UHGV virus genome: UHGV-0390443
Length of the DNA: 39,252 nt
Direction: 5' to 3' (one strand)
Source of the DNA: a virus
This document shows, piece by piece, positions 2,042 through 22,623 of the stretch. The notes beneath the pieces were generated by a model, which made no database searches, was not told the origin of the DNA, and worked only from the letters and a program-made list of their open reading frames with translations. The stretch's first letter is position 1. Each line of letters begins with the position of its first letter. A program made the position numbers and the translations under genes.

Positions 2042-2341
2042 ATGAACGTTAATCAGCAGAAAAATCTTCAAAAAATCATGCTGGCATTCGACAAGGACTA
2101 CCGCCTGTCAGAACAGCTATATGACCGACAAGTTGAACTGATTGAGAGTATCCGGCTTCATCAACTGGCATCAACTTTCGACGTTGTAACAGTTAAAGGC
2201 GTTCGCCAGGAAGTACTGGAGGCCGCTAAAGACAGCCCTGAGTTCGAAGAACTAATGGATGCCTACCGGCGCGAGGCAATGGCAATTATCGCCCGCTGGG
2301 ATCTGGCTGATCAGATTGATGGGCAGAGGGACGCGGCATGA
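2042..2341 (+). CDS. Hypothetical early protein (99 aa)
   Basis: ORF track 2027..2341; ATG 2042 preferred (RBS GGGAGGG 2029..2035); translationally coupled to downstream exonuclease. Confidence 0.55.
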   Translation: MNVNQQKNLQKIMLAFDKDYRLSEQLYDRQVELIESIRLHQLASTFDVVTVKGVRQEVLEAAKDSPEFEELMDAYRREAMAIIARWDLADQIDGQRDAA

Positions 2342-5581: not shown

Positions 5582-6832
5582 TTATTCCCCCGCCATCCAC
5601 TTCTCAAACTTCGACGGGGAGAACGGAATCAGATCCGTATGCTCCCCGTTAATCCAGGAATCAATCATATCGGCCCACTGCTGCAACATGTAGGCGCGCT
5701 GTCTGGCGTATTCCGCTTTGTTATATACGGCGCGCACACCTTTCTGCTCATGTGCCAGAGCCTTTTCAATCCAGTCTGAAGGATAACCAGCCTCATGCAA
5801 CAACGTACTGGCTGTACGGCGCATATCGTGTACGGTGAAGTCCTGAATATGCTCACCATCTTCATTTATTATTTTCACCGTTCTGTCGATCAGAGAGTTC
5901 AGCGCGGCATTAGATAATGGCTTCCGGAAATTGTAACGACCAGGAACCAGATATTCACTTCCACCAGCGCACATCTGCAACCCGACCAATATATCCTGTG
6001 CCTGTTTAGGCAGGTAAATAACGTGCGCCCGGCTTCCCTTCATACGGTCTGAAGGAATTGTCCATGTCCATTTTTTAAAATCTATTTCATCCCACGTTGC
6101 ATTGGTGAATTCGCCTTTACGAACCATAGTGATAAGCACCAGCTTTAAAGCCATTTTCATAGTGCCCATAGCGCCAATGGCATCCAACGTGCGGAAGAAC
6201 AGGCCAATTTCTTCTGGTGTCAGTGTTCGCTCTCGTGGTTTAAATATGGCGATAGACGAAGGTTTAATGTCAGCCGCAGGATTAAACAAACCATGACCAC
6301 GGTCATTGGCGTGACGGTATACGCTGCTGATGATCTCCCGGGCCTGCACTGCTGTTGCCCGGCCACCGCGTTCGACAATCCGGTCACACAAATCACGAAC
6401 CATCGATGTGGTAATTTCAGCCATCATTTTGTTGCCAAGAACCGGAAGTATGTCACGGTCGATCACCGCCTGCTTCATTGCGCGGGTACTTTCAGCCAGG
6501 ATGACGTGTTTCATATAACTGTCGGTATGTACCGCAAATGTCTCGGCACCACGAATCTTTTTGATACCGTCACGTTTAGCCGCAGCCGGCGACTGGCCTG
6601 CTTTAAGCAGCTTCTTTGCAGCAATCAGTTCTTCCCGCGCTTCTGCCAGGCTGATACCGTCACGCCCATACTGCCCGATTACCAGTGTTTCGCGGCGACC
6701 GTTGATACGGTAGTCATAGCGAAACGAGACCGTACCTGACGTAAGCACAGCTACATACAGCCCGTCACGATCGGAAACTTTGTACAGTTTGTCCTGTGGC
6801 TTGAGGTTCTTTAATTTTGTATCGGTAAGCAC
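5582..6832 (-). CDS. int: Tyrosine integrase (P4-like, with N-terminal arm-binding domain)
   Basis: 416 aa; N-terminus LTDTKLKNLKPQDKLYKVSDRDGLYVAV; C-terminal catalytic region HDMRRTASTLLHEAGY...RAVY; GTG start. Confidence 0.9.
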   Translation of the reverse strand: MLTDTKLKNLKPQDKLYKVSDRDGLYVAVLTSGTVSFRYDYRINGRRETLVIGQYGRDGISLAEAREELIAAKKLLKAGQSPAAAKRDGIKKIRGAETFAVHTDSYMKHVILAESTRAMKQAVIDRDILPVLGNKMMAEITTSMVRDLCDRIVERGGRATAVQAREIISSVYRHANDRGHGLFNPAADIKPSSIAIFKPRERTLTPEEIGLFFRTLDAIGAMGTMKMALKLVLITMVRKGEFTNATWDEIDFKKWTWTIPSDRMKGSRAHVIYLPKQAQDILVGLQMCAGGSEYLVPGRYNFRKPLSNAALNSLIDRTVKIINEDGEHIQDFTVHDMRRTASTLLHEAGYPSDWIEKALAHEQKGVRAVYNKAEYARQRAYMLQQWADMIDSWINGEHTDLIPFSPSKFEKWMAGE

Positions 6833-7150: not shown

Positions 7151-7633
7151 CTATCTTGTCAGGGTGTCATACTGTTTTTCGCAGACTCTTCCGGCTGCGG
7201 CTGCCCGGTCAGCATACTCTGCCAGTTGTCTGTTTCTCTCGAGAGATTTGCTGAGCACGTCGGCAAGCAAAACTCCGGTGTCTGCGGCTGACGTCCCAGC
7301 GCCGACAATGGCGTTATACTGCCTGAGCTGCTCACGGATGGCAAAGAGTTGTTGCTGCAACCTGCCAGCGCGAGCGGCAGCATCAAGAGCATCATTGCGC
7401 GCCTGGTCGATCCTCTGCTGAGCTTCACGTTCATTGGCCACTTTCTCCTGTTCGTAGTACTGACGAACTTTGTCTTCTTCGGCTTTGCGGTCTTCTTCCG
7501 CCTGCGCATACCCGGCATCGTACTGGCGACTGCCGTGTATATTCCAGGCAACCACTCCGACGATGAACAGAGCAGCAAGCATCAACACAATAAGCATCTG
7601 TTTCCAATATGCTTTTACGAATGCCCAGATCAT
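7151..7633 (-). CDS. Rz-like inner-membrane spanin (i-spanin)
   Basis: 160 aa; N-terminal TM segment then charged coiled-coil region; last gene of lysis cassette. Confidence 0.7.
7159..7434 (-). CDS. Rz1-like outer-membrane lipoprotein spanin (o-spanin), embedded in the i-spanin gene in another frame
   Basis: Within ORF 7159..7578; start at internal Met giving [26 protein letters not shown] (signal peptide with lipobox LAGC), Pro-rich mature region. Confidence 0.6.
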   Translation of the reverse strand: MNVKLSRGSTRRAMMLLMLPLALAGCSNNSLPSVSSSGSITPLSALGRQPQTPEFCLPTCSANLSRETDNWQSMLTGQPQPEESAKNSMTP

Positions 7634-8259
7634 ATAGCCAGCACCTTACTGGCAGTGACGTACCGCGCGCGCCGGTCGTCGATGCCGTTCCTGCCACCAT
7701 TGATAATCAGAGTTACACGTGCAATATCACCGGTATACTTCATGCATCCTTTGCTGGCAAAGAACCACGCCGCGCTACGAGCCGCGTATTCGTCCTGCGC
7801 CAGCAGTTCAGGATTCTCCAGCAAGTCCACTTTCAAGCCGTTTCCGCAGTCACGATAGTTATTCAAACCGGTAATCTGGATAAGTCCGCGACCTCGGTAA
7901 TTCCAGCCATCGCCGGGAGCATTGTTCCCCATGCGTTTGCTGTACACCAGATTGGCAATCGCTCTCTGGCGCTCAGGTGGCAATGGTGGTTCACCAGCAC
8001 GGCGCCCCAATGCGTTGGCCTGTCCCTGAGTGAGACGCCCAGCCCGAACGAAGTTAGCCAGTCCGCTGACGCTGTAGTTGAAATTTTCCTGCAACCGGGT
8101 GAAGCCTCCAGACTCATGCCCGACCTGAGCAATAAACATTGCCTGATCTTCTGGTTTGCTGATATCAAACTCTTTCATCGCAGAAGTTATATGCGAGAAC
8201 CAGCGTGCGGCCAGCGCCTCGCTAATACCAGCAGCTCGCTGGAATTGTTTAATCTCCAT
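7630..8259 (-). CDS. Endolysin, glycoside hydrolase family 19 (chitinase-like lysozyme)
   Basis: 209 aa; motif [22 protein letters not shown]. Confidence 0.85.
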
Positions 8260-8557
8260 GTTTAGACCTCGTTATTTTGAAAATCTGAACGACGTTACCG
8301 CGAGTTTTAAGAACCGCAGCAAGCATGACAGCGTTGATAATGACCTCAGATAAATCCACAGCCATTGGCGTGCGTAACCAGATTGCATAGACGACACGAA
8401 CAGGAATACTGGCCGCAGCAACAATAAGGAAATAAGCAAGCCACCCTCCCCATCTTCGGTGTTGTGAACCGTTACGCCGGAATGTGACAACACGAATTGC
8501 TATGCCAGTACAAATAAGTGCATTGGTGATAAGCAAAACAAGCTCATTAGTTACCAT
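8249..8557 (-). CDS. Small membrane protein, holin or antiholin candidate
   Basis: 102 aa with 2-3 hydrophobic segments; between holin-like gene and endolysin. Confidence 0.5.
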
Positions 8558-8957
8558 CGCCTTTTCTCCCCGGAATTAACTCGCGTGGATTATCGGAACG
8601 GTGATAGAGCCAGATGCCAATTCGAACTGCGACGATTGCTGACACGAATGCACCAGCAGAGAAAACAATCCCTTTCTCAAACGAGTCCTGCGTAATGGTA
8701 GGGATCAGGCTGGCTATGCCGATAAGAATTGATGCTGCTGGTTTGTAAAAGAGAAGGCCGCAAAGAAAGCTAAGCATCGACAGGAGCACCCGTCGGCGAA
8801 TCGGATATTCGACAGCAGAGGTAACAAAAATTACCGCACCAGACAAAGAACCCAAAGCAACCTCCGGAGGAACACCTGCTATCACCGCAGCAAGAGACCC
8901 CATACTAAGCCACTGATTTAATGTTTCACTGGTTAGTTGAGCAGACATGTTTTTCAC
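8547..8957 (-). CDS. Holin-like multi-pass membrane protein
   Basis: 136 aa, several hydrophobic helices; first gene of lysis cassette. Confidence 0.55.
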   Translation of the reverse strand: MKNMSAQLTSETLNQWLSMGSLAAVIAGVPPEVALGSLSGAVIFVTSAVEYPIRRRVLLSMLSFLCGLLFYKPAASILIGIASLIPTITQDSFEKGIVFSAGAFVSAIVAVRIGIWLYHRSDNPRELIPGRKGDGN

Positions 8958-12304: not shown

Positions 12305-12570
12305 TTTACATCGCACTCCTCTTGTGCCATAGTAATCAGGCACTGGCAAAATCCAGTGCCGGGATTGGTCTCCCGGATTACTACAGAGGCACATATGCCG
12401 CATAAGCGGTTTTTTTATGTGTAAAGCGCACCTATTCTATGGTGGGCTGTGTGGGGGCACCGAAAGGTGCGCCGGGTTCCTTTGTAGCCGGTAAGACCAA
12501 CTCTGCACAGTTCACCACCATCTGATTGGTCTCAGCGGTGGTGATTAACCTAACTACAAAGGTGATCGCC

Positions 12571-13263
12571 ATGAATACCAAACCTTCCATCTTTTCCTTT
12601 GAGTCATCCTGCCAGATCCGTATGTTCATGATTGACGGAGAACCTTGGTTTGTCACCAAAGATGTGTGCAATGCTTTGAATATTGATGTTACACAAGCGA
12701 GAAAACTTGATAAAAAAGGCTGGAACAAAAAGGGGCTGTATTCAATACAGACCCCTGGTGGAATACAAGAACTATCCATCGTTTCAGAATCAGGTCTCTA
12801 CATCCTTATTCTGCGTTGCAAAGAGGCAATGACAGAGGGAACGAGAGCATTCAGATTTCTTGAATGGGTTACAGGTGAGGTTCTTCCTCAGATCCGCCGC
12901 ACCGGAAGTTACATTAAAAACTCGCTCCCGCAGGAAGAACGCATAAAGATGGTTGCCGACCAGGTAGCCAACGCCACGGCGTCAGCAGTAATGCAGGCGA
13001 TGAAGATAGAGAACAAAACCTACAGTGCCCCACTGAAGCCCGGCTACCGTAGCCTGATTCATTCGCCGTCTGGTGTTCTCGGCCTGACGGAGCACTCACT
13101 GCTGATGAATCTGCTGAACCAGTTACAGGAAGACGGGCATGATGTATCAGGCGCGGCGGCGGAGCTGACCACCATGTTCTGCTACATCGTCGGTGTGAGC
13201 AAATGCCTGCGTGATATCCAGACGCACGCGGAGTACATCAACGACAAGGCTGGGTTCTTCTGA
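12571..13263 (+). CDS. Antirepressor with Bro-N N-terminal domain and Ant/KilA-C-like C-terminal domain
   Basis: ATG 12571 with RBS AAAGGTGA; Bro-N signature SIFSFESSCQIRMFMIDGEPWFVTKDVCNALNI. Confidence 0.75.
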   Translation: MNTKPSIFSFESSCQIRMFMIDGEPWFVTKDVCNALNIDVTQARKLDKKGWNKKGLYSIQTPGGIQELSIVSESGLYILILRCKEAMTEGTRAFRFLEWVTGEVLPQIRRTGSYIKNSLPQEERIKMVADQVANATASAVMQAMKIENKTYSAPLKPGYRSLIHSPSGVLGLTEHSLLMNLLNQLQEDGHDVSGAAAELTTMFCYIVGVSKCLRDIQTHAEYINDKAGFF

Positions 13264-13329
13264 CGGGCGGCGGCACAGGGATGTGCCTTTAAAATAATCA
13301 TTGGCGATGTGATGTAGATTCGCGTAATA

Positions 13330-13344
13330 TTACCTTAAAGGTAA
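13330..13344. promoter_or_regulatory. Operator TTACCTTAAAGGTAA overlapping a putative promoter (-10-like TAATAT 13325..13330)
   Basis: Perfect dyad 27 bp upstream of ATG 13371. Confidence 0.55.
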
Positions 13345-13370
13345 ACCATGTGTTTACATGAGGAGGAGAT

Positions 13371-13580
13371 ATGGGATTTTGGTTCGCTCGTACAAAAACG
13401 AGGGATAATGCACCCAGCCCTCAGGCAAAAAATGCAGAAGTTCCGGCGTCAGCGCAGGTTAACAAGCGTGGTGGAGTATATATCTCATCACAGCAAATTT
13501 CTGAGCTTCCTGAGGTTAAGGAGATGCGTCGTCTCGCTGCTGCAATTGTTAAACAGGATCTTGCCACTGTAAGGAAGTAG
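13371..13580 (+). CDS. Small soluble hypothetical protein (69 aa), first gene of a two-gene moron operon
   Basis: ORF with strong RBS GAGGAGGAG; stop overlaps start region of the membrane protein gene. Confidence 0.55.
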   Translation: MGFWFARTKTRDNAPSPQAKNAEVPASAQVNKRGGVYISSQQISELPEVKEMRRLAAAIVKQDLATVRK

Positions 13581-14446
13581 TGTTGCTAGCTCTTCTAATT
13601 ATCCCAATCCTGGTTAGCGGTTATATTATGATAACCGCTAACCAGTATCATTATTTCCGTTTATACCGACACGAAGGCCAGCTTCTTTATATGAAAGTAG
13701 CGGCACTAGGTACATATTGCCTTGTTGCATCAGTAATAATTGCAGCCGCTATAAAATATAAATGGCCTGATTTTCACCTAGTTCACGATATGGTGGAAAC
13801 TTTTAATGTAACATCAAAACCAGAAACAGATAGAATTTACATGTGGCTGCTTCTTCTCTCAGCCACATCCATTTGCTTCTCTTTGTGTTATGTGTCTGTT
13901 GTGTGGGTGAAAGATTTTCTTCTTGGTTGTTTTTATAAACGTGATATTTACGAGCAAAAAACAGAGGCAATGAAGGCCAGAGTACTGCGAAAAACTTACT
14001 CGCAAGGTTCTTTAGACTTACTATTGCTTGATGCTATTGAATCGGATCCTAAACGACCAATGCTGATTACTTTATCATCAAACAAAGTGTATGTTGGAAT
14101 AATAAATGGTTCTGGTGAACCAACGGAAAATCAGGGTCCGCATCAGCACATATCTTTTGTTCCTTTAATGTCAGGATACAGGAACAAAGAAAACTTATCT
14201 GTCACATTCACTAATGCTTATCCAGGAGAAATACAGGTCAAGCGGACTGCAGCAATAAGAGGAATTAGCAGAAAGAAAGTGCCAGGACTTGAGATCATGG
14301 TGTCTATTGACGAAATAAGTTATATATCATGGTTTGATTTTGAAGTATATAAAGCAACAAATAACAAAGTAGAATCCAGGGGGCACGTTATTCGTGTTAC
14401 CAAAAATGGAAGAAATATATATCAAAGAAATAGCAAAAAAGAATAG
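13580..14446 (+). CDS. Membrane protein with about 3 N-terminal TM helices and a ~170-aa C-terminal soluble domain; function unknown
   Basis: 288-aa ORF, low GC; hydrophobic segments LLALLIIPILVSGYIMITA, VAALGTYCLVASVIIAAAI, IYMWLLLLSATSICFSLCYVSVVWV; start (GTG 13580 or TTG 13583) uncertain. Confidence 0.55.
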   Translation: MLLALLIIPILVSGYIMITANQYHYFRLYRHEGQLLYMKVAALGTYCLVASVIIAAAIKYKWPDFHLVHDMVETFNVTSKPETDRIYMWLLLLSATSICFSLCYVSVVWVKDFLLGCFYKRDIYEQKTEAMKARVLRKTYSQGSLDLLLLDAIESDPKRPMLITLSSNKVYVGIINGSGEPTENQGPHQHISFVPLMSGYRNKENLSVTFTNAYPGEIQVKRTAAIRGISRKKVPGLEIMVSIDEISYISWFDFEVYKATNNKVESRGHVIRVTKNGRNIYQRNSKKE

Positions 14447-14447
14447 C

Positions 14448-14472
14448 CCGCGCCGCGGGCTTTTTTGTGTCT
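14448..14472 (+). terminator. Rho-independent terminator after membrane protein gene
   Basis: GCCCGCG-CC-GCGGGC followed by TTTTTTGT. Confidence 0.75.
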
Positions 14473-14512
14473 GCGGACTCCCGCCCGGGCGGCGGTGGCA
14501 TTCGTTAAAAAC

Positions 14513-14531
14513 AAGGCCGCGAAAGCGGCCT
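14513..14531 (-). terminator. Putative terminator for the convergent minus-strand gene
   Basis: AGGCCGC-GAAA-GCGGCCT; minus-strand downstream TGTTTTTAAC. Confidence 0.5.
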
Positions 14532-14543
14532 GTGACATGTCAC
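14532..14543. repeat. 12-bp perfect palindrome GTGACATGTCAC (copy 1 of 3; others at 31882..31893 with one mismatch and 34147..34158)
   Basis: Exact string seen three times, with shared 14-bp context CGTGACATGTCACA in two copies. Confidence 0.6.
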
Positions 14544-14544
14544 G

Positions 14545-14994
14545 CTACTTGCGAAATCTTTCTTTACCCTTCCAGCCAGTAGATGTTAGTTCAGGATGAA
14601 TGGTTCCCAATATAAAGCCAACCATAGCGGAGCGAGGATCTTCTATTTTATCCGTTAATTCTTCGGCATAACTCACAGGCAACCAAGCAACAAGATCACC
14701 AATCCTCAGCTTTGGTCCTTTGCTGTAAGATGAATCGGCAATAACAAAAAATCCACCATCAGCTGAGCACACCTTCAGCATTGCCCTTTGTCTTCCAGAA
14801 TCCAGCAAAACTGGCTGTTCCCCACTGGGACCAGGTATGATGATGGCTGGCATTGGTTTATTGGCTGAAAGGCTTGTGTCAAGATACTTACACGCATACT
14901 CAAAAGCTGAAAAGTTATCCTTAAAGATAAGAGGTTGAATTTTATTGCTAACCTCCTTACCACCGATTAATCTGTTGATCATCTTCTTGAACAT
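14545..14994 (-). CDS. Hypothetical cytoplasmic protein (about 149 aa)
   Basis: ORF track 14545..15003; ATG 14994 preferred (RBS AGGTGA, spacing 5). Confidence 0.5.
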   Translation of the reverse strand: MFKKMINRLIGGKEVSNKIQPLIFKDNFSAFEYACKYLDTSLSANKPMPAIIIPGPSGEQPVLLDSGRQRAMLKVCSADGGFFVIADSSYSKGPKLRIGDLVAWLPVSYAEELTDKIEDPRSAMVGFILGTIHPELTSTGWKGKERFRK

Positions 14995-15006
14995 AAAGGT
15001 CACCTA

Positions 15007-15447
15007 ATGATTAAGCCGATGCACGCTATTACAGCTACCGTTTTGTTTATCCTACCAATTTTTTCGTTTGCAAACGACATATGTTTTAAGAATTTAATAA
15101 ATGAGGATATGTGTGCACATGCAAACAAAATTGCATCAGAAGCAGGAAAGTCACTTCCCATAAAATTGAATGATAATATGTCTATTGTTTCAATAAATGC
15201 AATACTAAACAAACTTTTAGTTGTAGCGCATCTTAATTACAACAACAGCTATTTATCAAAAGTTTATAATGGTGATGTAACCTTAGAAAATAAATTAAAG
15301 AGTGTAATGCGAAATTATTCAAAATCGAGCATTTGCTCCAACAGGCAAATAAAAGCATTTATTCACCTTGGCGGAGAGATTGAGTATAGGTATGTATTTA
15401 GTGATGGCAATATATTTGATACATACGCCATCACTAATTGTGAATAG
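15007..15447 (+). CDS. Hypothetical secreted protein with N-terminal signal peptide (about 146 aa, 4 Cys in mature part)
   Basis: MIKPMHAITATVLFILPIFSFA then NDICF...; very AT-rich codon usage; abuts the internal virion protein gene. Confidence 0.5.
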   Translation: MIKPMHAITATVLFILPIFSFANDICFKNLINEDMCAHANKIASEAGKSLPIKLNDNMSIVSINAILNKLLVVAHLNYNNSYLSKVYNGDVTLENKLKSVMRNYSKSSICSNRQIKAFIHLGGEIEYRYVFSDGNIFDTYAITNCE

Positions 15448-18400
15448 CTATTTCATCTGCTCTTCAACTTTATTTAGTAACGGTGATATCGCCCACAGGT
15501 TCTGAAAAGGTAGCATTTTACGGACCGCGTGGGTTTGCTGGCTGTCAAATTCTCCGTTAAGTACACCATTCGCAACCGTCGCGGCATCACCGCCAAGATC
15601 AAAGGTAGGACCAAGTAAAGCACCAATAGCATTACGACTCTGAAACCTTGATACCGGAGGCGCACCAAACATCGCGCCAAGACCAAACCTACCGCCGCTT
15701 ATGTTCTCAACGGTATTCAGCGGCTCAGAGAGCCAGCCAAGCATTCCGCCCCGGTCGATCCCCTCTTTCACAAGGTTATTCCAGCTGTAGTCGATATCGC
15801 GACCGCTTAACTTCTGTTTCATCATATAGACCATTGAGCCAAGCGCAATCGTGCCAAGCGCACCAAGATAGAATGCAGCATCGCCCTGCTGGATACCAGA
15901 TACTAGCACCCTGTTATGCTGTGCGAAGATAAACGTTTTGAACTGCGTGATCATCTTCCAGCCTTCTTTACTAAAAAACAGCGGTGTATCACCTACGCCA
16001 GGCGTTACAATCACTGAGTCTACATCTTTCAGCACTGCAGACTGGAAAATCTCTCTAGCGAAACGGTCATCCCACAGATGACTATGCCCGGTTAACAGCC
16101 CGTCCATATCCTCTCCGTGCTTCCCGAATTGCTCCCCGATTCGGCGCAGAACATCTTCATTGATGCCGACCTGTGCCATCTTCCGCATTTCACTTTTGGA
16201 GAGCGTGCCACCAGCAGAAACTTGGCGAGCCGCGTCAAGTATCCTCGACTGCACTATCATCCCGGACCATGATTTAAGTGCGCTGTTCCACTGATTCATC
16301 AGCGTCCAGTTACCGAATTTCTGCGTCATCCAGTTCAGACCTCGCTCAGCGGCGCTTCTCCGGCTATAGGGGTCAGTAAGATCCGCTATAGCCTTTGTAC
16401 GCGTAGACAGGACATAATCAAGCCCAACGGCCATTTCTCGCAAATCCCTGGTTGCAATTTTCACTGAGTCCATATTTTTAAGCATGCTTACCATTGGTCC
16501 GAGAGATTTTCTCAGGCCATGCTGCATCATCGGTCGCATCAGATCAGTTGCAGCGGAGACAGTCATTCCACCAAGCAAACGGAGGAAGTTAATATTCCTA
16601 GCAACTCGCCCGGCACGAACAAAGAAACTGCGTGGATCTTGAGGTGCACCGTAAGTACCAAGCAGTCGATCACGCATAGCCGTAATATCCCTAATATCAG
16701 CCTCCCGTTGCTTCTCAAGAACTGCACGTCGTTTAGGTGTTTTAGCCTCTTTTATTAGCCGGGTATATTCCTCACTAACCTGACGGATTTGCTCCCCCAT
16801 ATCTTTACGGCCAAACTGCGCAGTCAGCTCAATTTCTGGTGCCACCTGCCGGAGATAACTTTCCATAATGTAGTTAACATCTGATTCAAGAAAATCTTCT
16901 ATACGCTCATCAGGAATAAGCAGCGTTCTGCTTTTAGTGAAACCAGCCCGACCAACGAGTCTCTCTGGGACAATATCGGCTGGTACAAGCCCGGAAGGTG
17001 CGCCTATTATTTTATTCACGATCTCGTCAGCAGCGTCCTCTGCTTCCTCTCGGGATAGAGGCTCCATCTGCTTCAGTGCTCGTTCGCGGCTTGCATTCAG
17101 CCTTGTGGTTGAATTTGCCCGTTTTTGCAGTCGGCGAAGCTCAGAACGATATTTCCGTGGATTATCCAGCAACTCCATATGGCGCTGATAGACAGGAAGC
17201 TCACTCTTTGCCTGCGCTATATCATCAAGGCGTGTTTTAAGGTCAGAGCTTTCTTTCATCATTCTTGCCTGAAGTTTTTCTGATGAAGTCTCGGCCAACT
17301 CTTTTTCTATTCTTGTAAGACGCGCCTGTGTGTCAGTCTCCTGAGATATAAGCTTATTTCGTTTATCCAGTTCTTCCATGAGTAGAATTTTTTTACCAGA
17401 CCATTTCTCCGCTTCAGCGATTTCACTAGCGAGAGCATCAGCGCGCGGTGCCGATTCCTCTGCAGTTTTTAGCAATGAATTTATCCTTTCAATTCGCTGA
17501 CCTGCTTTGTCAGCACCTTTGGCACTAATCCCTTGTATCCAGTTGGCAATTCGCCCTCTGAATTCAGTGCGGTCGGAAAGTATCTTATCGAACTTATAAA
17601 TGCGGGGAAGATAACTTTTCGCCGTCACGACATCGATATCCTCAGGAAGGATCCCCAGTTCCTGCATACGGGCTTTTGTGGTCTCGAAAATGGGGCGGAT
17701 TCTGGCGGCTGCTTGTGAAACCTCAGGAATATCACTCTGATCACCACGGCGCATAGCCATGCCAACAGCTTCATTGAAATCAATAAAGCTCATCCTCTTC
17801 ACGCCGCGGGCGCTAACAGATTTGCTGTACTGCTGGTAAGCATCACGAGTGGCTTCCATCTGCTTATAAAGCATGGCGTCGTATTGCTTAATCTTAGTCT
17901 CGACTGCCGTAAACGTAGCCAACCCCTCATCATTTTTGGCGAAGAAATAGTTATTTTCGGCAAGCTGCTGGTTAATCTGACGGGAGACAAGAGATGGTGA
18001 TTGAGCCAAGCGGCCAGCAGGAGTGACACTCAACGTTTTGTTAGCAAGTCCAAGTCCAGCGAGCTGTTCCTGATCGAGTGTGGTATTGAAAACCTGAGCT
18101 GCACCAATGCTTTGAGGAGAATCCATACCTCGCAAATGATTACCTACTGAGTTAACCACTGCCTCGCGCGCGCTAGGTCCAGCAAGTAGCTGTGCACCAG
18201 CACCAAGGATCCCACCAACGAGAGCATCAACAACAACGTTCGATACGCTCTCCATCGGTGAGCGAGCTTCCTGAGTGGCCTGTAATGCGGCTTCTGATAC
18301 TCCCCCACCAGCAGCATTCGCTAGGGCAAAACGCCCTGCCGTCTCAGCAATACTTCCTCCACGCGCTACCGCCCCTACAGGGATGAACATTGCAGCCACA

Positions 18401-18837
18401 TTAACCGGGTCTATCATTCCCATTGCTAAGCTTGAAATAGTACCAGCACCCCCCATTTCAGATAGATATTCTCTATCTGTTCTTTGCTTATCGATTCGAT
18501 GTTTAATTGCCATTGTTTCTTCATGCGAACCGGAGTTGATAAACGAATCTGCAAAATCTTCATAGCCTTTAATATCTGCTGCATCGTTATCAAATGGGTT
18601 ATATCCTTCAACCCTGTCAAACTGACTGAAAGGAGCACTGGCAATAAAGCTACCCAGCGTGTTATCTATACGAAATGCTGCTTGTCTAGACCTTTGAACG
18701 CGTTGATCACTGGTAAATGGGTTCACAGCAGAAAGCAAAGAAGGTGTTTCCATATAGAAATTACTGTCATCAGGTGCTGCTATTTGCTGAATATCCTCGC
18801 CAAGCAACTCTTTAGGATCCTGTTCATATATCGGCAT
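15448..18837 (-). CDS. Large internal virion / ejection protein (T7 gp16-like position)
   Basis: 1129 aa, coiled-coil-rich, last gene of T7-like tail-tube/core block. Confidence 0.7.
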   Translation of the reverse strand: MPIYEQDPKELLGEDIQQIAAPDDSNFYMETPSLLSAVNPFTSDQRVQRSRQAAFRIDNTLGSFIASAPFSQFDRVEGYNPFDNDAADIKGYEDFADSFINSGSHEETMAIKHRIDKQRTDREYLSEMGGAGTISSLAMGMIDPVNVAAMFIPVGAVARGGSIAETAGRFALANAAGGGVSEAALQATQEARSPMESVSNVVVDALVGGILGAGAQLLAGPSAREAVVNSVGNHLRGMDSPQSIGAAQVFNTTLDQEQLAGLGLANKTLSVTPAGRLAQSPSLVSRQINQQLAENNYFFAKNDEGLATFTAVETKIKQYDAMLYKQMEATRDAYQQYSKSVSARGVKRMSFIDFNEAVGMAMRRGDQSDIPEVSQAAARIRPIFETTKARMQELGILPEDIDVVTAKSYLPRIYKFDKILSDRTEFRGRIANWIQGISAKGADKAGQRIERINSLLKTAEESAPRADALASEIAEAEKWSGKKILLMEELDKRNKLISQETDTQARLTRIEKELAETSSEKLQARMMKESSDLKTRLDDIAQAKSELPVYQRHMELLDNPRKYRSELRRLQKRANSTTRLNASRERALKQMEPLSREEAEDAADEIVNKIIGAPSGLVPADIVPERLVGRAGFTKSRTLLIPDERIEDFLESDVNYIMESYLRQVAPEIELTAQFGRKDMGEQIRQVSEEYTRLIKEAKTPKRRAVLEKQREADIRDITAMRDRLLGTYGAPQDPRSFFVRAGRVARNINFLRLLGGMTVSAATDLMRPMMQHGLRKSLGPMVSMLKNMDSVKIATRDLREMAVGLDYVLSTRTKAIADLTDPYSRRSAAERGLNWMTQKFGNWTLMNQWNSALKSWSGMIVQSRILDAARQVSAGGTLSKSEMRKMAQVGINEDVLRRIGEQFGKHGEDMDGLLTGHSHLWDDRFAREIFQSAVLKDVDSVIVTPGVGDTPLFFSKEGWKMITQFKTFIFAQHNRVLVSGIQQGDAAFYLGALGTIALGSMVYMMKQKLSGRDIDYSWNNLVKEGIDRGGMLGWLSEPLNTVENISGGRFGLGAMFGAPPVSRFQSRNAIGALLGPTFDLGGDAATVANGVLNGEFDSQQTHAVRKMLPFQNLWAISPLLNKVEEQMK

Positions 18838-21584
18838 TATTTGCCCCCTGCGTATATATTGCTCGGAAGGTAATTGGCTGAACCATAACCGAATGGTTTG
18901 GTCAGATCTGGAGGAGTATATCCATCTTTATTGCTGAACTGCGGCAGCGGATTGCCTTCTCTCCGCACTCTAGCCTCATCAACACGCTGTTGCTGTAACT
19001 GAATGGTTTGCCTGTACATTGGAGATGTCAGCTGATCCGGCTTGAAACGAACAGGGAGACCATTTTCTCCAATATAATTTCTCGGTTCTATCGCTCCGTT
19101 TGCGTCAGGCTGTAAAACCATAACAGCATAACTCCTATCCCTTGCCGTAAGGCCATCAGAAACAAGTATTAAGTCCGTATCACTGCGAGGACCGCCAAAG
19201 GATTTTGATTTAAGCTCGCGTTTTTCCTGCTCCCACTGCCCCTGTATCCAGTTACCAGCACCATTATTTACTCCGTACAATGCCTCAGGTGCATACTTCA
19301 TAACCTCTGCTTTGCCATTAACCGTAGAAACTCCCCAGGTGGTTCTGATCATGGCATTGGTCATTTTCTCAGCCTGTTCTGCATCGCCACCTGTCTGTAC
19401 AAAGTTAGCATCGTAAATTGTCTGGTAATCTCGCTGATAGGCCGCATTTGATTTTCCTGGATCGGTAATATCCGGAGACCACGAACCAAAGGAAGTCAGA
19501 CTGCTGGCGTTATTTTGTGCAGCAGTTGCCCTCGCCGCGACATATTTTTTGTCTCGCATGGCAGTGGAAAGCATCTGTTTCATTCGGTCATCCTGTTGGA
19601 ACACCTGGCTGTAAGCCATATCAACAGCCTTATCCTCCGGCACGCCAGCGCGGGAATAATCGTAAACCTTGCCGTAAAATGCCATCGTACTTTTATCAAG
19701 TGTTGCCGCTGCCGCCGGATTATTATCGAATAACTGACCGTAGAATTTTGCCATCGGGACAACCAGCGCAGGATCTCTTGATGTTGCTCCACTGTTAAGC
19801 ATTGTTTTAACCTGAGTTGGTATCATGCCGCTTTTAGTTGTGACGGTGACCAGTGTATTGATGCTCTGCGGATCAGATATGGAAAACGAAGGCGCGATAT
19901 CCTGCGCGAAATAACGGTCTACCGCTGCCTGATTGTTTTTGTCGTTCGGGTCCAGCGGGAAGTTATTTTGCATTGAAGACACGAACCTGTTTCTTCCCTG
20001 CTGAATCTCCCACTCCCTATCCATCTCTTTAAATTTGGCCTGCATTTTCTCCCAGCGTTGCTGGTTAGCAGCAAATCCAGGAGCGTTTGGATCCTGTGGA
20101 CGTAAACGTTCAAGAATGTCTTGTCGTCCTTCTGGAGTGAGGTCTTTAGCGGCACCAATGACACCTCCATATTGTATCTGCGCCTGCATATCCTTCCACT
20201 TCATAGCGCCAATGCGCGGACCATTGGCCCGGATAAAATCGTCCTCAGAAGGTAACTTCTCAGGTTTCAATCCTTCATCAAGGGCTGAATATGCATCTTT
20301 AACTACGGTGCTAAGCTGGTCCGCATACTGCTGGCGGTACTGATTTCTCAGCTCATTAGCCTGCCTCAATGCCTGTATTTGCATTTGAGGGCTCATAGCA
20401 TCAAATGCCGCATTGCCCGTATAACGCTTAGGTGAATCAAGGTTAGTTAGACCAAGGGCTGCCGAGATACCAGTTTCAAGCTGTTCGGTGCTATAAGGCA
20501 TACTGCCATTTTCGTGTTTAATAATCCCAGCACATAAAGCAGCTAGTGTCTTTGGGTTAGAGATATCAAGCTGATCATTCTCCCCAACACCAAGCTCACC
20601 ACACAATGCCCTAATATAAGCATCAGTATTATTACCATCACTAGCCGGAGCATAGCGATTAACAATCTCGCTAACGGTGTCATAGCCTTGACGCTGGTAA
20701 GACAACATATTTTTACCCAACGCGCGGATTCCATGCTCAGGGGTAGCAAACGTTGCAAAACGTCCATCGCTACCGATCTGACCTTCCCACGGGTTAGATT
20801 TGCTCGCTTCAATATTACCAGGGTTATTATTACGTAAACCACGAGCATCCAATGAATTACCATGTGATATTGCACGACTCACACCACCAAGATCCCCTGG
20901 CTCTCCATTAACCTGAAGAAACTCGTTGTATTTTTGAGCGATATTTCCTATCCATGCTTGCTGCCCCATTTCTTCCTTGAGCTGAGTTTTCTGCTGAACA
21001 CGCCACTCATCAGGAAGCCCATGCGCATCAGCGTATTGATCAATAGATTCAAATCGCTGCTTGGCTAAATCGACAAATGCTTGGTTATCGCTATATAGCC
21101 CCGCAGACTGAGTGACAGCCAATGCATTTCCTGACAAATACGTTTGATCTTGGAATTGCTGAAACTGCCCAACTTCATATCGACGTGCCTGATTGTAATA
21201 AGACTGCATAGACTGCTGGAGTTGAAAGGATAATTTATTCCTTTCCTCACTTTCAGGGATTGAGCCTAATAATGCCTGAGCCCTTTCCTGCATATTTTTC
21301 ATAACAGCGTCACTCTGACCAAGAGCGTTTTTACCCTGTTTAGAAATCAGCCCATTTTCAGGGTTGTTAATCTGGTCATCTGCAAATTGGTTAAATTGCA
21401 GTAACGCCTCCTGGGCCATAGCAACATTCGCTTTCTGCCTGGCTTCACCATATGCCACCGCATACTGATCTGCGACATTCGCCAGCACCTGACCTGCTTG
21501 AGGAACATCGAAGGTCTGAAAACCACCGGTTTGCACACCACGACTTTGCACCTGGCGTCCGGATGTAGTAGGAACAACAGGCAT
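18837..21584 (-). CDS. Internal virion / ejection protein (T7 gp15-like position) with conserved RNNNPGNI motif region
   Basis: 915 aa; segment ARGLRNNNPGNIEASKSNPWEGQIGSDGRFATFATPEHGIRALGKNM; start overlaps stop of upstream gene. Confidence 0.7.
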   Translation of the reverse strand: MPVVPTTSGRQVQSRGVQTGGFQTFDVPQAGQVLANVADQYAVAYGEARQKANVAMAQEALLQFNQFADDQINNPENGLISKQGKNALGQSDAVMKNMQERAQALLGSIPESEERNKLSFQLQQSMQSYYNQARRYEVGQFQQFQDQTYLSGNALAVTQSAGLYSDNQAFVDLAKQRFESIDQYADAHGLPDEWRVQQKTQLKEEMGQQAWIGNIAQKYNEFLQVNGEPGDLGGVSRAISHGNSLDARGLRNNNPGNIEASKSNPWEGQIGSDGRFATFATPEHGIRALGKNMLSYQRQGYDTVSEIVNRYAPASDGNNTDAYIRALCGELGVGENDQLDISNPKTLAALCAGIIKHENGSMPYSTEQLETGISAALGLTNLDSPKRYTGNAAFDAMSPQMQIQALRQANELRNQYRQQYADQLSTVVKDAYSALDEGLKPEKLPSEDDFIRANGPRIGAMKWKDMQAQIQYGGVIGAAKDLTPEGRQDILERLRPQDPNAPGFAANQQRWEKMQAKFKEMDREWEIQQGRNRFVSSMQNNFPLDPNDKNNQAAVDRYFAQDIAPSFSISDPQSINTLVTVTTKSGMIPTQVKTMLNSGATSRDPALVVPMAKFYGQLFDNNPAAAATLDKSTMAFYGKVYDYSRAGVPEDKAVDMAYSQVFQQDDRMKQMLSTAMRDKKYVAARATAAQNNASSLTSFGSWSPDITDPGKSNAAYQRDYQTIYDANFVQTGGDAEQAEKMTNAMIRTTWGVSTVNGKAEVMKYAPEALYGVNNGAGNWIQGQWEQEKRELKSKSFGGPRSDTDLILVSDGLTARDRSYAVMVLQPDANGAIEPRNYIGENGLPVRFKPDQLTSPMYRQTIQLQQQRVDEARVRREGNPLPQFSNKDGYTPPDLTKPFGYGSANYLPSNIYAGGK

Positions 21585-22159
21585 CAGTAACCTCCTATTT
21601 TGAATCGGGAGTCAGAATTCATAAAACCTGAGTTAGATAACATTGGCGTCCCACCACCAGATGTACTTCCTTTAGAGAACGGACTCCACGTCCCACCAAA
21701 CATCTGGTACGCACCGTATGCCTTCAGAGGCGCAGTGAGCAATGTTGTTGCTGCTCCCACATTCCCCTGTTTACGGGCTGAACTGGCTTCTGCTTTATAG
21801 TTGGCAGCCTGAACCTGATAACCGTAAGCCTCGCGTTGCGCGTTATTCACCGTCGTCAGCGAATCAAGAGCGCCAAACTGGGCAGTGTCGCCAAATATAT
21901 CCAGCGCGTTACCTGTAGATAAATCAGCGCCGGTAGCCCCCATTGTCGCCGCCTGTGTACCAAGCCGCTGTCGGGTCTCTCTGCGCCGTTGCTCAGCTTC
22001 AGCGTTACCTCTGTTTATTGCATCATTTGCCTGAGCTGTGGCTATATCTGCGTTCGCTTCTGCAACCTTCGAGGCATACTTTCCCTGTTGGTACTGGGTG
22101 TATGCCTGAATGCCACTCATGACGAGCATTGCGCCACCAGCAATAACCGGATCGCACAT
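21584..22159 (-). CDS. Putative internal virion protein (gp14-like position)
   Basis: 191 aa, N-terminal hydrophobic segment, Ala/Gln-rich; synteny only. Confidence 0.5.
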   Translation of the reverse strand: MCDPVIAGGAMLVMSGIQAYTQYQQGKYASKVAEANADIATAQANDAINRGNAEAEQRRRETRQRLGTQAATMGATGADLSTGNALDIFGDTAQFGALDSLTTVNNAQREAYGYQVQAANYKAEASSARKQGNVGAATTLLTAPLKAYGAYQMFGGTWSPFSKGSTSGGGTPMLSNSGFMNSDSRFKIGGY

Positions 22160-22623
22160 TATTTTCTCTCCATGTGAAATCTGTGGAAATTAAGACCAAG
22201 TGCACCATAAGGCGCGGCTTCTTCAAGCCTGAACCCAAGCCAGTGCAGCCATGCTTTGGCAACATGGTTTCGCTCGTCGACGTAGTTTTCCAGGCGCGGA
22301 TAAACTGCCAGCATCTGCTGCAATACAGGTCGGCAGTGGCGAAGAAATGTCTTCTGATATTTTTCAATACGGCTGGTTCCGACCAGCCAGGGCGTACCAT
22401 TGCCACCGATCATTGACGCCGGAGATACGCCAAACATGGTTACCAGTTCTCCGTTCGCGAACCCTGACCAGGCCATAGTCGCAGTGCGAAGACCAACACG
22501 CAGCGCATCTTCGGTAGTCATCAGCGATACCGCATACAGTTCGTCAATATCAGCCTGACGAACATCCGGCAAAATCATCTGAAGATGCTCTTCGGTGGCG
22601 GGAATAATTCGAACATCGATCAT
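22159..22623 (-). CDS. Virion-associated hypothetical protein (gp13-like position)
   Basis: 154 aa ORF, start/stop overlaps with neighbours; synteny only. Confidence 0.5.
   Translation of the reverse strand: MIDVRIIPATEEHLQMILPDVRQADIDELYAVSLMTTEDALRVGLRTATMAWSGFANGELVTMFGVSPASMIGGNGTPWLVGTSRIEKYQKTFLRHCRPVLQQMLAVYPRLENYVDERNHVAKAWLHWLGFRLEEAAPYGALGLNFHRFHMERK

What the first reader, a model, noticed from the sequence alone, without database searches (positions are those of the whole stretch)
18837..21584. Internal virion protein with a conserved RNNNPGNI-containing segment (possible cell-wall-active domain)
The 915-aa protein in the T7 gp15-like position carries a central segment (ARGLRNNNPGNIEASKSNPWEGQIGSDGRFATFATPEHGIRALG) that I associate with virion-borne peptidoglycan-acting domains. 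In T7 the muralytic activity resides in gp16, so a gp15-position enzyme domain would be a module shuffle. The assignment is tentative.
Basis: inference. Interest (0 to 1): 0.3.

Follow-up and report, generated by a model that had tools for sequence, protein, structure and literature searches.

The report
Phage ejection protein with wall-cutting domain
This gene of an epsilon15/phiV10-like temperate E. coli phage encodes a large protein packed inside the virion that carries a built-in, Enc34-type cell-wall-cutting domain, most likely used to open the peptidoglycan when DNA is injected; this layout is already known for this phage group and for other short-tailed phages.

Summary
Window 18837-21584, minus strand, is a 915-aa ORF, and the quoted motif is aa 247-290.

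[quoted passage not shown] The sequence match to PDB 7Q47 has E 4e-15, and the domain model superposes with TM 0.68-0.75.
- It also matches the N-terminal domain of a Kayfunavirus gp16 (PDB 9VVP, E 5e-35).
- The Enc34 catalytic residues Glu131, Tyr95 and Trp79 correspond to E358, Y323 and Y311. E358 and Y323 are invariant in 35 homologs.
- The gene lies between a T7-gp14-family gene and a T7-gp16-family gene that lacks the N-terminal SLT region.
- The three best PDB fold matches of the full-length model are all T7 gp15.
- The phage has its own GH19 endolysin, holins and spanin elsewhere, so this protein is not the lysis enzyme.
- Phage TL-2011b has a Pfam SLT domain at exactly the same site of the same scaffold.

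None of this is new in kind. epsilon15 gp15, phiV10 p18 and SPN1S_0017 carry the same domain at the same site, and movement of the hydrolase from gp16 to gp15 homologs is described in the literature.

Verdict: an ordinary new member of a known kind. Its main value is for annotation.

The parts
18837..21584 (-). 915-aa gene for the gp15-position internal virion (ejection) protein. It is an alpha-helical scaffold of about 755 aa with an embedded enzyme domain of about 160 aa.
   Evidence: ORF and translation. Full-length match to phrog_1044, E = 0. AlphaFold2 model has mean pLDDT 79 and is almost all helical. Foldseek PDB top 3 are T7 gp15: 7k5c_A, 6yt5_A, 7eyb_A. BFVD hits are podophage internal virion proteins.
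20379..20858 (-). Enc34/PHA02564-type lysozyme-like muralytic domain, aa ~243-402. A low-confidence linker at aa 241-250 bounds it on the N side.
   Evidence: phmmer to 9vvp_L E 5.2e-35 and to 7q47_A E 3.7e-15. Domain-only AF2 model has pLDDT 80 and pTM 0.77. Foldseek finds only 7q47_A/B as significant hits, TM 0.68-0.75, 34% identity. It is the only part of the gene with detectable nucleotide similarity to epsilon15 and SPN1S.
20715..20846 (-).
   Evidence: Exact string match. N252-N257, W266, E283, H284, G285, R287 are invariant in 35 homologs.
20511..20513 (-). Codon of E358, the predicted catalytic glutamate (equivalent to Enc34 Glu131).
   Evidence: HMMER alignment KHENGS/RHENGS. Numbering check: chain index 132 corresponds to paper residue Glu131. 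Invariant in A1, A2 and A3. Role of Glu131 from PMC8943055.
20616..20654 (-). Codons of Y311 (20652-20654, equivalent to Enc34 Trp79; the family consensus is W) and Y323 (20616-20618, equivalent to Enc34 Tyr95).
   Evidence: Alignment NRYAP/ERWAP and NNTDAY/NNTTAY. Positions. Y323 is invariant, and R310, A312, P313 flanking position 311 are invariant.
21584..22159 (-). 191-aa gp14-like internal virion protein, directly upstream and translationally coupled.
   Evidence: Pfam T7_gp14 E 4e-8, 33.8 bits, cutoff 27. phrog_418. PGAP calls it 'virion core protein, T7 gp14 family' in E. coli prophages.
15448..18837 (-). 1129-aa gp16-family internal virion protein lacking the N-terminal SLT domain, directly downstream and translationally coupled. 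It has hydrophobic segments at aa 134-158, 200-220 and 987-1006.
   Evidence: phrog_342 E 1e-234, matching profile positions 192-1227 only. T7 gp16 matches the same profile at 4-1227 and has Pfam SLT at aa 15-127. No SLT or other enzyme domain in Pfam. Hydrophobicity scan.
22159..22623 (-). 154-aa gp13-position internal virion protein.
   Evidence: phrog_308 E 2e-62. The epsilon15 ortholog gp13 carries a RefSeq note of an HHpred hit to a GNAT acetyltransferase.
21388..21678 (.). Mosaic junction zone. About 97-98% nucleotide identity to TL-2011b ends at 21388 (about codon 65 of the 915-aa gene), and identity to phiV10 ends at 21678 (inside the gp14-like gene). Downstream of this the gene is of a different lineage, about 81% identical to Klebsiella prophages.
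   Evidence: blastn per locus. megablast. aa 1-57 are nearly identical to TL-2011b gp37.
7151..8957 (-). Context: the phage's separate lysis cassette. It holds holins at 8547-8957 and 8249-8557, a GH19 endolysin at 7630-8259, and an Rz-like DUF2514 gene at 7151-7633. It shows that the 915-aa protein is not the lysis endolysin.
   Evidence: Pfam Phage_holin_8, Phage_holin_3_7, Glyco_hydro_19 (38.7 bits, cutoff 25.5) and DUF2514.

Best explanation
The 915-aa protein is a virion-internal ejection ('pilot') protein of an epsilon15/phiV10-like temperate podophage. It occupies the slot of T7 gp15.

Architecture: an all-helical scaffold (aa 1-240 plus aa 400-915, about 755 aa; T7 gp15 is 747 aa) is interrupted by a globular Enc34/PHA02564-type lysozyme-like domain of about 160 aa.

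Proposed mechanism (steps marked as shown or inferred):
1. The protein is packaged in the head together with the gp14-like and gp16-like proteins. This is inferred from synteny, translational coupling and family membership.
2. On adsorption the three proteins are expelled through the portal and tail and rebuild a trans-envelope conduit, with the gp15-like protein forming the periplasmic tube. This is inferred from the T7 ejectosome structures and from epsilon15 tomography as described in PMC8954989 and PMC12391199.
3. The embedded domain uses E358 as the single catalytic acid, with Y323 and Y311 positioning the glycan. It cleaves glycosidic bonds of the peptidoglycan locally so the tube can cross the wall. 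Domain identity and residue conservation are shown here. Activity is inferred from Enc34 ORF39. Bond specificity is unknown; the Enc34 authors proposed an N-acetylglucosaminidase.

In T7 the equivalent enzyme (SLT) is the N-terminus of gp16 and docks as 'wings' on the gp15 tunnel. Here the enzyme is fused into the tunnel subunit itself, and the gp16 homolog has lost that region.
For: - ORF, motif and coupling.
- Domain identity: 9vvp_L E 5e-35 and 7q47_A E 4e-15. The domain model matches only 7q47, TM 0.68-0.75.
- The 9vvp Gp29 sequence is 99% identical to Kayfunavirus gp16, annotated 'DNA ejectosome component'. In Kayfunavirus F the domain begins right after the gp15 stop.
- Catalytic residues: E358 and Y323 are invariant and position 311 is aromatic. 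Residue roles and muralytic assays come from PMC8943055.
- gp15 slot: Pfam T7_gp14 upstream. phrog_342 downstream starts at profile position 192, versus position 4 for T7 gp16, which carries SLT at aa 15-127.
- Scaffold fold: the top 3 PDB hits are all T7 gp15. There are 78 BFVD hits at E<=1e-3. Of the 50 listed, 6 are named internal virion or virion proteins (RSB3, JG068, LIMElight, PSTNGR1 and two others) and 12 carry wall-degrading names (SLT, GH108, LKA1 'Lysozyme', M23, NlpC/P60 and similar); the other 32 are unnamed or uncharacterized.
- Functional-equivalence argument: TL-2011b gp37 is colinear over aa 1-850 but has Pfam SLT (30.2 bits, cutoff 21.3) at exactly the site of the Enc34-type domain.
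- Not the lysis enzyme: a separate cassette of holins, GH19 endolysin and Rz-like gene is present.
- Same domain at the same site in epsilon15 gp15, phiV10 p18 and SPN1S_0017.
Against: - No experiment on this protein or on any Uetakevirus gp15 was found in the searchable literature. Virion location and activity are therefore inferred.
- Sequence-level homology to T7 gp15 is not established. BLASTP gives only a local E of 0.002, hhalign gives E 0.12, the two proteins fall in different PHROGs, and Foldseek TM-scores are low at 0.13-0.18.
- Position 311 is Tyr, where Enc34 and most homologs have Trp.
- Pfam and NCBIfam have no model for the domain.
- Earlier epsilon15 work, as cited in PMC12391199, lists gp15 together with gp17/16 as a component of the tail packaging/injection device, so its place in the virion may not be the internal core.
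Confidence: 0.85

Rival explanations
1. It is a virion-associated peptidoglycan hydrolase, but a component of the external tail hub or tube rather than of the internal core. It would act from the tail tip without being ejected and refolded.
For: PMC12391199, citing Guichard et al. 2013, lists gp15 and gp17/16 of epsilon15 as parts of the tail packaging/injection device. RefSeq labels the orthologs loosely as 'head protein', so the location is not settled. Homology to T7 gp15 is weak at the sequence level.
Against: The window already encodes homologs of the T7 tail tubular proteins A and B (202 aa and 823 aa; phrog_376 'tail protein') that would form the hub. The gene is flanked by, and translationally coupled to, gp14-family and gp16-family core proteins. 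The best PDB fold matches are T7 gp15 in its core and tunnel states.
Confidence: 0.1
2. The central domain is a catalytically inert peptidoglycan-binding or purely structural module that anchors or spaces the periplasmic tube and cuts nothing.
For: No activity data exist for any gp15-embedded copy. Position 311 is Tyr instead of the Trp of Enc34. The bond specificity of the family is itself unproven.
Against: The catalytic Glu (E358) and Tyr (Y323) are invariant across 35 homologs down to 34% identity, and conservation is concentrated in the groove-forming segments. In TL-2011b the same site holds an SLT domain with its motif set E-S / GxxQLM / AYNxG, as read from the pairwise alignment, and a Pfam SLT hit at aa 263-342. 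This argues that selection at this site is for an enzyme. The window shows no other virion-borne hydrolase.
Confidence: 0.04
3. It is the phage's lysis endolysin, as the PHROG (phrog_1044 'endolysin') and RefSeq TL-2011b labels suggest.
For: phrog_1044 is categorised under 'lysis/endolysin'. TL-2011b gp37 is labelled 'endolysin' in RefSeq. The nearest characterised enzyme, Enc34 ORF39, is an endolysin.
Against: The window has a complete separate lysis cassette: two holins, a GH19 endolysin and an Rz-like gene. The 915-aa protein sits in the structural operon between core-protein genes. About 80% of it is non-enzymatic helical scaffold with a T7-gp15-like fold. It has no transmembrane or signal segment (max KD19 0.74).
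Confidence: 0.01

Closest known systems
Enc34 ORF39 endolysin catalytic domain (family PHA02564; PDB 7Q47; Cernooka et al. 2022, PMC8943055)
   Same: Same domain family: E 3.7e-15, 34% identity, TM 0.68-0.75. It has the all-helical lysozyme alpha-lobe-like fold and the conserved NNPGN loop, and the equivalents of Glu131, Tyr95 and Trp79 are present.
   Different: Enc34 ORF39 is a 26-kDa lysis-cassette protein whose domain is N-terminal and followed by two transmembrane helices. Here the domain is internal to a 915-aa virion scaffold with no transmembrane segment. The Trp79 equivalent is Tyr.
epsilon15 gp15, phiV10 p18 and SPN1S_0017 (Uetakevirus gp15 orthologs)
   Same: Same gene position. They share the N-terminal ~500 aa, including the same domain at the same site (45% identity to phiV10 p18 over aa 1-499).
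   Different: The C-terminal ~415 aa are unrelated. The downstream partner also differs: one T7-gp16-family gene here, versus gp16 plus gp17 (phrog_1145 and phrog_684) in epsilon15. SPN1S has an extra insert of about 95 aa before the domain.
Escherichia phage TL-2011b gp37
   Same: Same scaffold, colinear over aa 1-850, with a nearly identical first 57 aa and the same kind of gp16-family partner.
   Different: The central cassette is a Pfam SLT (GH23) domain instead of the Enc34-type domain. This is a same-site, non-homologous replacement.
Kayfunavirus gp16 (PDB 9VVP 'Gp29'; internal virion protein D / DNA ejectosome component)
   Same: It is the closest solved sequence match for the domain (E 5e-35, about 47% identity) and is also a virion ejection protein.
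   Different: There the domain is the N-terminus of the gp16 homolog, which is the T7 topology. Here it is embedded in the gp15-position protein.
T7 gp15 / gp16 ejectosome (PDB 7K5C, 6YT5, 7EYB)
   Same: Same operon order gp13-14-15-16. The gp14 and gp16 families are shared, the scaffold fold ranks T7 gp15 first, and there is one muralytic module per ejectosome.
   Different: In T7 the enzyme is an SLT lytic transglycosylase at gp16 aa 15-127. Here it is an Enc34-type domain inside gp15, and gp16 lacks the SLT region. Sequence similarity to T7 gp15 is not significant.
K1E/K1-5 gp35 and phiKMV-group gp36-type proteins (gp15-position proteins with a lysozyme domain)
   Same: They set the precedent for a muralytic domain on the gp15 homolog rather than on gp16 (review PMC8954989). 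LKA1 'Lysozyme' and other internal virion proteins are fold hits of the scaffold.
   Different: They carry different enzyme families. The terminal position of those domains is my recollection only and was not tested here.
PM2 structural protein P5 (Vinavirales lysin)
   Same: Same Enc34-type domain (tblastn E 9e-13). Yutin et al. 2022 (PMC9502842) showed the fold and the W/Y/E triad. The phiV10 annotators had already noted the similarity.
   Different: P5 is a small protein of a tailless, membrane-containing phage and is not part of a podophage ejectosome.

Membership tests
Enc34/PHA02564-type lysozyme-like muralytic domain | Significant sequence similarity to the Enc34 ORF39 catalytic domain | tested here: met
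   phmmer against PDB: 7q47_A E 3.7e-15 over aa 247-362; 9vvp_L E 5.2e-35 over aa 247-399.
Enc34/PHA02564-type lysozyme-like muralytic domain | All-helical fold resembling the alpha-lobe of lysozyme (core helices alpha2-alpha5) | tested here: met
   The AF2 domain model (pLDDT 80, pTM 0.77) superposes on 7q47_A/B with TM 0.68-0.75, E 1e-9, and has no other significant PDB hit.
Enc34/PHA02564-type lysozyme-like muralytic domain | Catalytic Glu131 plus Tyr95 and an aromatic residue at Trp79 (PMC8943055) | tested here: met
   E358 and Y323 align to Glu131 and Tyr95 and are invariant in 35 homologs. Y311 aligns to Trp79; it stays aromatic, and the family consensus is W.
Enc34/PHA02564-type lysozyme-like muralytic domain | Peptidoglycan-degrading activity | not testable with these tools
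   Shown only for Enc34 ORF39deltaC by turbidity assays. A zymogram or turbidity assay of aa ~240-402 is needed.
T7 gp15-type internal virion protein C (periplasmic tunnel subunit) | Gene lies between the gp14 and gp16 homologs in the ejection-protein operon | tested here: met
   Upstream: Pfam T7_gp14 above cutoff. Downstream: phrog_342, the same family as T7 gp16. The start and stop codons overlap those of the neighbours.
T7 gp15-type internal virion protein C (periplasmic tunnel subunit) | Detectable sequence homology to T7 gp15 | tested here: not met
   BLASTP gives only a local E of 0.002. hhalign of A1 against T7 plus Kayfunavirus gp15 gives E 0.12, probability 0.5%. The PHROGs differ: 1044 versus 1339.
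T7 gp15-type internal virion protein C (periplasmic tunnel subunit) | Fold similarity to T7 gp15 | tested here: inconclusive
   The top three of 350,542 PDB chains are T7 gp15 (7k5c_A E 1.5e-4, probability 0.99), but TM is 0.13-0.18 and rmsd about 25 A. This fits a flexible helical protein but is not proof.
T7 gp15-type internal virion protein C (periplasmic tunnel subunit) | Packaged in the capsid core and ejected to form the periplasmic tube | not testable with these tools
   Needs virion proteomics and cryo-EM or cryo-ET.
SLT / GH23 lytic transglycosylase (T7 gp16 N-terminal type) | Match to Pfam SLT (PF01464) with the E-S / GLMQ / AYNxG motifs | tested here: not met
   The 915-aa protein and its isolated domain have no SLT hit. 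The positive controls do: T7 gp16 108.6 bits and TL-2011b gp37 30.2 bits.
Phage lysis endolysin | Encoded in the lysis cassette with holin and spanin, as a small soluble or membrane-tethered enzyme | tested here: not met
   The lysis cassette with a GH19 endolysin is at 7151-8957. This gene is in the structural operon, is 915 aa long, and has no hydrophobic segment.
Uetakevirus gp15 (epsilon15 gp15 / phiV10 p18; phrog_992) | Full-length orthology | tested here: not met
   Only aa 1-~500 are homologous: 45% identity to phiV10 p18, and phrog_992 profile positions 1-458 of 764. The C-terminal half is TL-2011b-like. The protein is a mosaic relative, not an ortholog.

The most novel reading that the evidence does not exclude
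The middle of this gp15-like scaffold may act as a defined socket into which non-homologous wall-degrading cassettes are exchanged by recombination. Observed occupants are the Enc34-type domain here and in epsilon15, phiV10 and SPN1S, an SLT domain in TL-2011b, and an optional accessory block of about 95 aa in SPN1S-type proteins. In this reading, cassette identity is adaptive. It would set which peptidoglycan chemotypes or physiological states of the host can be penetrated. The C-terminal half of the scaffold would co-evolve with the type of gp16 partner. The exchange itself is seen in the alignments. The adaptive, host-range-tuning part is speculation.
Probability: 0.15. Interest if true: 0.4.

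Novelty: new member of a known kind. Interest (0 to 1): 0.2.

Why it matters
The main value is for annotation.
- NCBI's pipeline leaves this gene as 'hypothetical protein' in 119 of 5,426 complete E. coli genomes.
- It leaves the partner gene with a misleading 'DUF919' label.
- PHROG and RefSeq call relatives 'endolysin' or 'head protein'.
- Pfam and NCBIfam have no model for the domain.

Recognising the protein as an ejection protein with an Enc34-type virion-associated peptidoglycan hydrolase corrects those labels. It also adds an embedded-domain architecture to a recently characterised enzyme family. Finally, it gives a clean natural example of a same-site cassette replacement (Enc34-type versus SLT). 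That example could guide engineering of ejection proteins or mining of enzybiotic domains. It does not change how podophage DNA ejection is understood.

Tried and rejected
- Pfam, NCBIfam and Pfam on the isolated domain gave no hit for the 915-aa protein. The only Pfam line was a sub-threshold GA_3 coiled-coil match, which I dismissed.
- Pairwise BLASTP of the 1129-aa protein against T7 gp16 showed nothing significant. The relationship appears only through the PHROG profile.
- PDB sequence searches with the gp14-like and gp16-like proteins found nothing useful.
- hhalign of the family alignment against T7/Kayfunavirus gp15 was not significant, so I do not claim sequence homology to gp15.
- The RefSeq note on epsilon15 gp15 ('HHpred: soluble lytic transglycosylase B') suggested that epsilon15 carries an SLT cassette. 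I rejected this. The alignment shows the Enc34-type domain and Pfam SLT does not hit it.
- I tested whether the C-terminal half corresponds to epsilon15 gp16, and whether the gp16-like protein corresponds to epsilon15 gp17. There was no match for the first and E 0.021 at the extreme C-terminus for the second.
- A literature search for 9VVP found nothing. I inferred the source phage group by tblastn instead.
- Guichard et al. 2013 on epsilon15 tail proteins is not in the held library.
- The full-length model searched against the PDB did not list 7q47, so a domain-only model was needed.
- The plus-strand ORFs overlapping the gene (19515-20343 and others) are antisense artefacts of a long coding region.

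Full report
OBSERVATION

The interval 18837-21584 is a single ORF on the minus strand with an ATG start and 915 codons. The plus strand of the same interval is full of stop codons. The ATG shares one base with the stop codon of the upstream 191-aa gene and is preceded by AGGAGG. The stop codon shares one base with the ATG of the downstream 1129-aa gene. The three genes are therefore translationally coupled.

WHAT THE WINDOW IS

The window is essentially a whole genome of a temperate epsilon15/phiV10-like podophage (Uetakevirus-type).
- It is 98.4% identical to Escherichia phage EC.W1-9 across the region examined, and 98% identical to phiV10 and TL-2011b across the tail-tube genes.
- It encodes an integrase, RecT and a lambda-P-like replication protein.
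- The minus-strand structural operon runs terminase, portal, scaffold, capsid, tail tube A, tail tube B, and then four proteins in the order of T7 genes 13-16.
- The 191-aa protein passes Pfam's T7_gp14 threshold (33.8 bits, cutoff 27).
- The 1129-aa protein matches phrog_342 at E 1e-234. T7 gp16 matches the same family over its full length.
- The same gene occurs in chromosomal prophages of 119 of 5,426 complete E. coli genomes. It is always labelled 'hypothetical protein' there, next to a 'virion core protein, T7 gp14 family'.

THE CENTRAL DOMAIN

Pfam and NCBIfam have no model for it. A sequence search of the PDB gives two strong hits over aa 247-399: 9vvp_L 'Gp29' (E 5.2e-35) and 7q47_A 'Endolysin' (E 3.7e-15).

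7Q47 is the catalytic domain of the Hafnia phage Enc34 endolysin ORF39, family PHA02564. The authors reported the following (PMC8943055):
- muralytic activity on permeabilised E. coli, P. aeruginosa and H. alvei;
- an all-helical structure resembling the alpha-lobe of lysozyme, with a permuted core relative to GH73 and GH23;
- Glu131 as the catalytic residue, with Trp79 and Tyr95 as conserved partners;
- a proposed but unproven N-acetylglucosaminidase specificity.

In the HMMER alignment these residues correspond to E358, Y311 and Y323 of the window protein. In an alignment of 35 homologs down to 34% identity, E358 and Y323 are invariant. So are the NNNPGN loop, W266, the block E283-R287, and R310/A312/P313 around position 311. 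Invariant columns are concentrated in aa 249-378 (domain-only alignment).

An AlphaFold2 model of aa 233-406 (pLDDT 80, pTM 0.77) matches only 7q47_A/B in the PDB, with TM 0.68-0.75 and E 1e-9. The next hit has E about 0.9.

The 9vvp sequence is 99% identical to the N-terminus of Kayfunavirus gp16, annotated 'DNA ejectosome component' or 'internal virion protein D'. In Kayfunavirus F the domain starts immediately after the gp15 stop codon.

tblastn finds the domain in 850 phage records. They include Kayfunavirus gp16 proteins, endolysins of Chi-like phages and Seuratvirus, and PM2 P5. Yutin et al. had already shown that P5 is an Enc34-like lysin (PMC9502842).

THE SCAFFOLD

The full-length model (35-sequence alignment, mean pLDDT 79) is almost entirely helical. 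A low-confidence linker at aa 241-250 precedes the domain. Against the PDB its three best hits are all T7 gp15: 7k5c_A (periplasmic tunnel; E 1.5e-4, probability 0.99), 6yt5_A and 7eyb_A. TM-scores are low, at 0.13-0.18.

Sequence evidence for gp15 homology is weak. BLASTP finds a local match at E 0.002. hhalign picks the same region but is not significant, at E 0.12. I therefore treat 'works like, and sits where, gp15 sits' as supported, and 'is a gp15 homolog' as unsettled. Without the ~160-aa domain the scaffold is about 755 aa; T7 gp15 is 747 aa.

Against BFVD there are 78 hits at E<=1e-3. Of the 50 listed, 6 are named internal virion or virion proteins (Ralstonia RSB3, Burkholderia JG068, Pantoea LIMElight, Providencia PSTNGR1 and two others). 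Another 12 are named for a wall-degrading domain (SLT, GH108, tail lysozyme, LKA1 'Lysozyme', LT_GEWL, M23, NlpC/P60, lysin). The remaining 32 are unnamed or uncharacterized.

MODULE SHUFFLE

T7 gp16 carries Pfam SLT at aa 15-127 and matches phrog_342 from profile position 4. The window's gp16 homolog matches only from position 192 and has no enzyme domain.

The strongest comparative evidence comes from TL-2011b gp37. It is colinear with the window protein over aa 1-850, and the first 57 aa are nearly identical. Its central block of about 150 aa is unrelated, and Pfam calls it SLT (30.2 bits, cutoff 21.3). Two non-homologous peptidoglycan glycosidase folds thus occupy the same site of one scaffold. 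That argues that what is selected at this site is wall cleavage.

THE PROTEIN IS A MOSAIC

- epsilon15 gp15, phiV10 p18 and SPN1S_0017 share the N-terminal ~500 aa, including the same domain, but have an unrelated C-terminal half.
- That C-terminal type goes with a gp16 plus gp17 pair of different PHROGs.
- The window/TL-2011b C-terminal type goes with a single T7-gp16-family gene.
- At the DNA level, high identity to TL-2011b ends at 21388 (about codon 65) and to phiV10 at 21678.
- Only the domain segment (about 20397-20876) keeps 66-68% nucleotide identity to epsilon15 and SPN1S.

NOT THE LYSIS ENZYME

The window has two holins, a GH19 endolysin (Pfam 38.7 bits, cutoff 25.5) and an Rz-like gene at 7151-8957. 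The label 'endolysin' on phrog_1044 and on TL-2011b gp37 therefore names the domain's chemistry, not the protein's role.

MECHANISM

Shown here:
- domain family, fold and catalytic residues;
- operon position and coupling;
- absence of SLT from the gp16 homolog;
- replacement by SLT in a relative;
- a separate lysis cassette.

Inferred from T7 and epsilon15 work, as summarised in PMC8954989 and PMC12391199:
- The protein is packaged in the core and ejected after adsorption.
- It forms the periplasmic part of the DNA conduit.
- Its embedded domain cleaves the glycan strands locally.

In T7 the gp16 SLT domain forms 'wings' on the gp15 tunnel. Fusing an enzyme into gp15 would place it in a similar position, which makes transfer between these two contacting subunits plausible.

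Rivals:
- Tail-hub location rather than internal core: about 0.1.
- Inert binding or structural module: about 0.04.
- Lysis endolysin: about 0.01.

NOVELTY

The concept is already published. [quoted passage not shown] The phiV10 annotation noted the similarity to PM2 P5. The epsilon15 RefSeq record notes a transglycosylase-like HHpred hit for gp15. The Enc34 and Vinavirales papers define the domain family. A 99.2%-identical protein is already in GenBank, unannotated.

Two points appear not to be spelled out in what I could search. One is the explicit assignment of Uetakevirus-type gp15 proteins to the Enc34/PHA02564 family with its catalytic residues. The other is the same-site Enc34-type versus SLT replacement.

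The finding is a new member of a known kind. Interest is low (0.2), and its value is for annotation.

Noticed in passing
L006:6501-9314 (SPN1S_0017, aa ~243-345); also P0079, P0083, P0100, P0103: Some homologs carry an extra, well-conserved block of about 95-105 aa ('...GNINLxNRPxVKNEDGSxSTVRTISxGTDxGEVLxPTVSDDGKLLSDDEAIALYExTGKHLGIFDNP...') inserted directly N-terminal to the RNNNPGN domain. It has no Pfam match and its function is unknown. It is absent from the window protein.
   Followed up: partly
window 12526-15447: An accessory ('moron'-like) island lies between the tailspike gene and the gp16-like gene. It holds a Bro-N antirepressor-like protein (12526-13263, +), a 288-aa hydrophobic ORFan (13580-14446, +), a 152-aa ORF (14545-15003, -) and a 146-aa ORF with a signal-peptide-like N-terminus (15007-15447, +). 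Only Bro-N has a Pfam hit. Identity to EC.W1-9 begins exactly at 15448, so the island differs from the closest phage.
   Followed up: partly
window 15448-18837 (-): NCBI's pipeline names this 1129-aa protein 'DUF919 family protein' in E. coli genomes. The label comes from a 46-residue coiled-coil match to a baculovirus family (23.4 bits). It is actually a T7-gp16-family ejection protein (phrog_342) lacking the N-terminal SLT region. It has hydrophobic segments at aa 134-158, 200-220 and 987-1006.
   Followed up: yes
window 18837-20087 (-) and 15448-18837 (-), compared with L007 and L002: The C-terminal half of the gp15-position protein co-varies with the type of downstream partner. The window/TL-2011b type goes with one gp16-family gene. 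The epsilon15/phiV10 type goes with a gp16 plus gp17 pair. This suggests a co-adapted interface inherited as a block.
   Followed up: partly
window 7151-8957 (-): The lysis cassette has two different holin-family genes in tandem (Phage_holin_8 and Phage_holin_3_7). They are followed by a GH19 (chitinase-class) endolysin and a DUF2514 Rz-like gene that contains an embedded out-of-frame ORF (7159-7578), possibly Rz1.
   Followed up: partly
window 9264-11804 (-): The 846-aa tailspike has a widely shared N-terminal adaptor (aa 1-166, matching many PHROG tail-fibre families). Its C-terminal intramolecular-chaperone (Peptidase_S74) match falls just below Pfam's cutoff. The receptor-binding middle part is variable.
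   Followed up: no
window 22159-22623 (-): For the gp13-position internal virion protein, the RefSeq note on the epsilon15 ortholog reports an HHpred hit to a GNAT acetyltransferase. Pfam gives only a sub-threshold T7 Gp13 match here. A possible enzymatic role for a core protein was not examined.
   Followed up: no
window 5582-6832 (-), 2338-4037 (+), 38028-38828 (-): A tyrosine integrase with an Arm-binding domain, a PDDEXK-like/RecT recombination pair and a lambda-P-like replication protein are present. They confirm a temperate lifestyle, consistent with the 172 chromosomal prophage copies found in complete E. coli genomes.
   Followed up: partly
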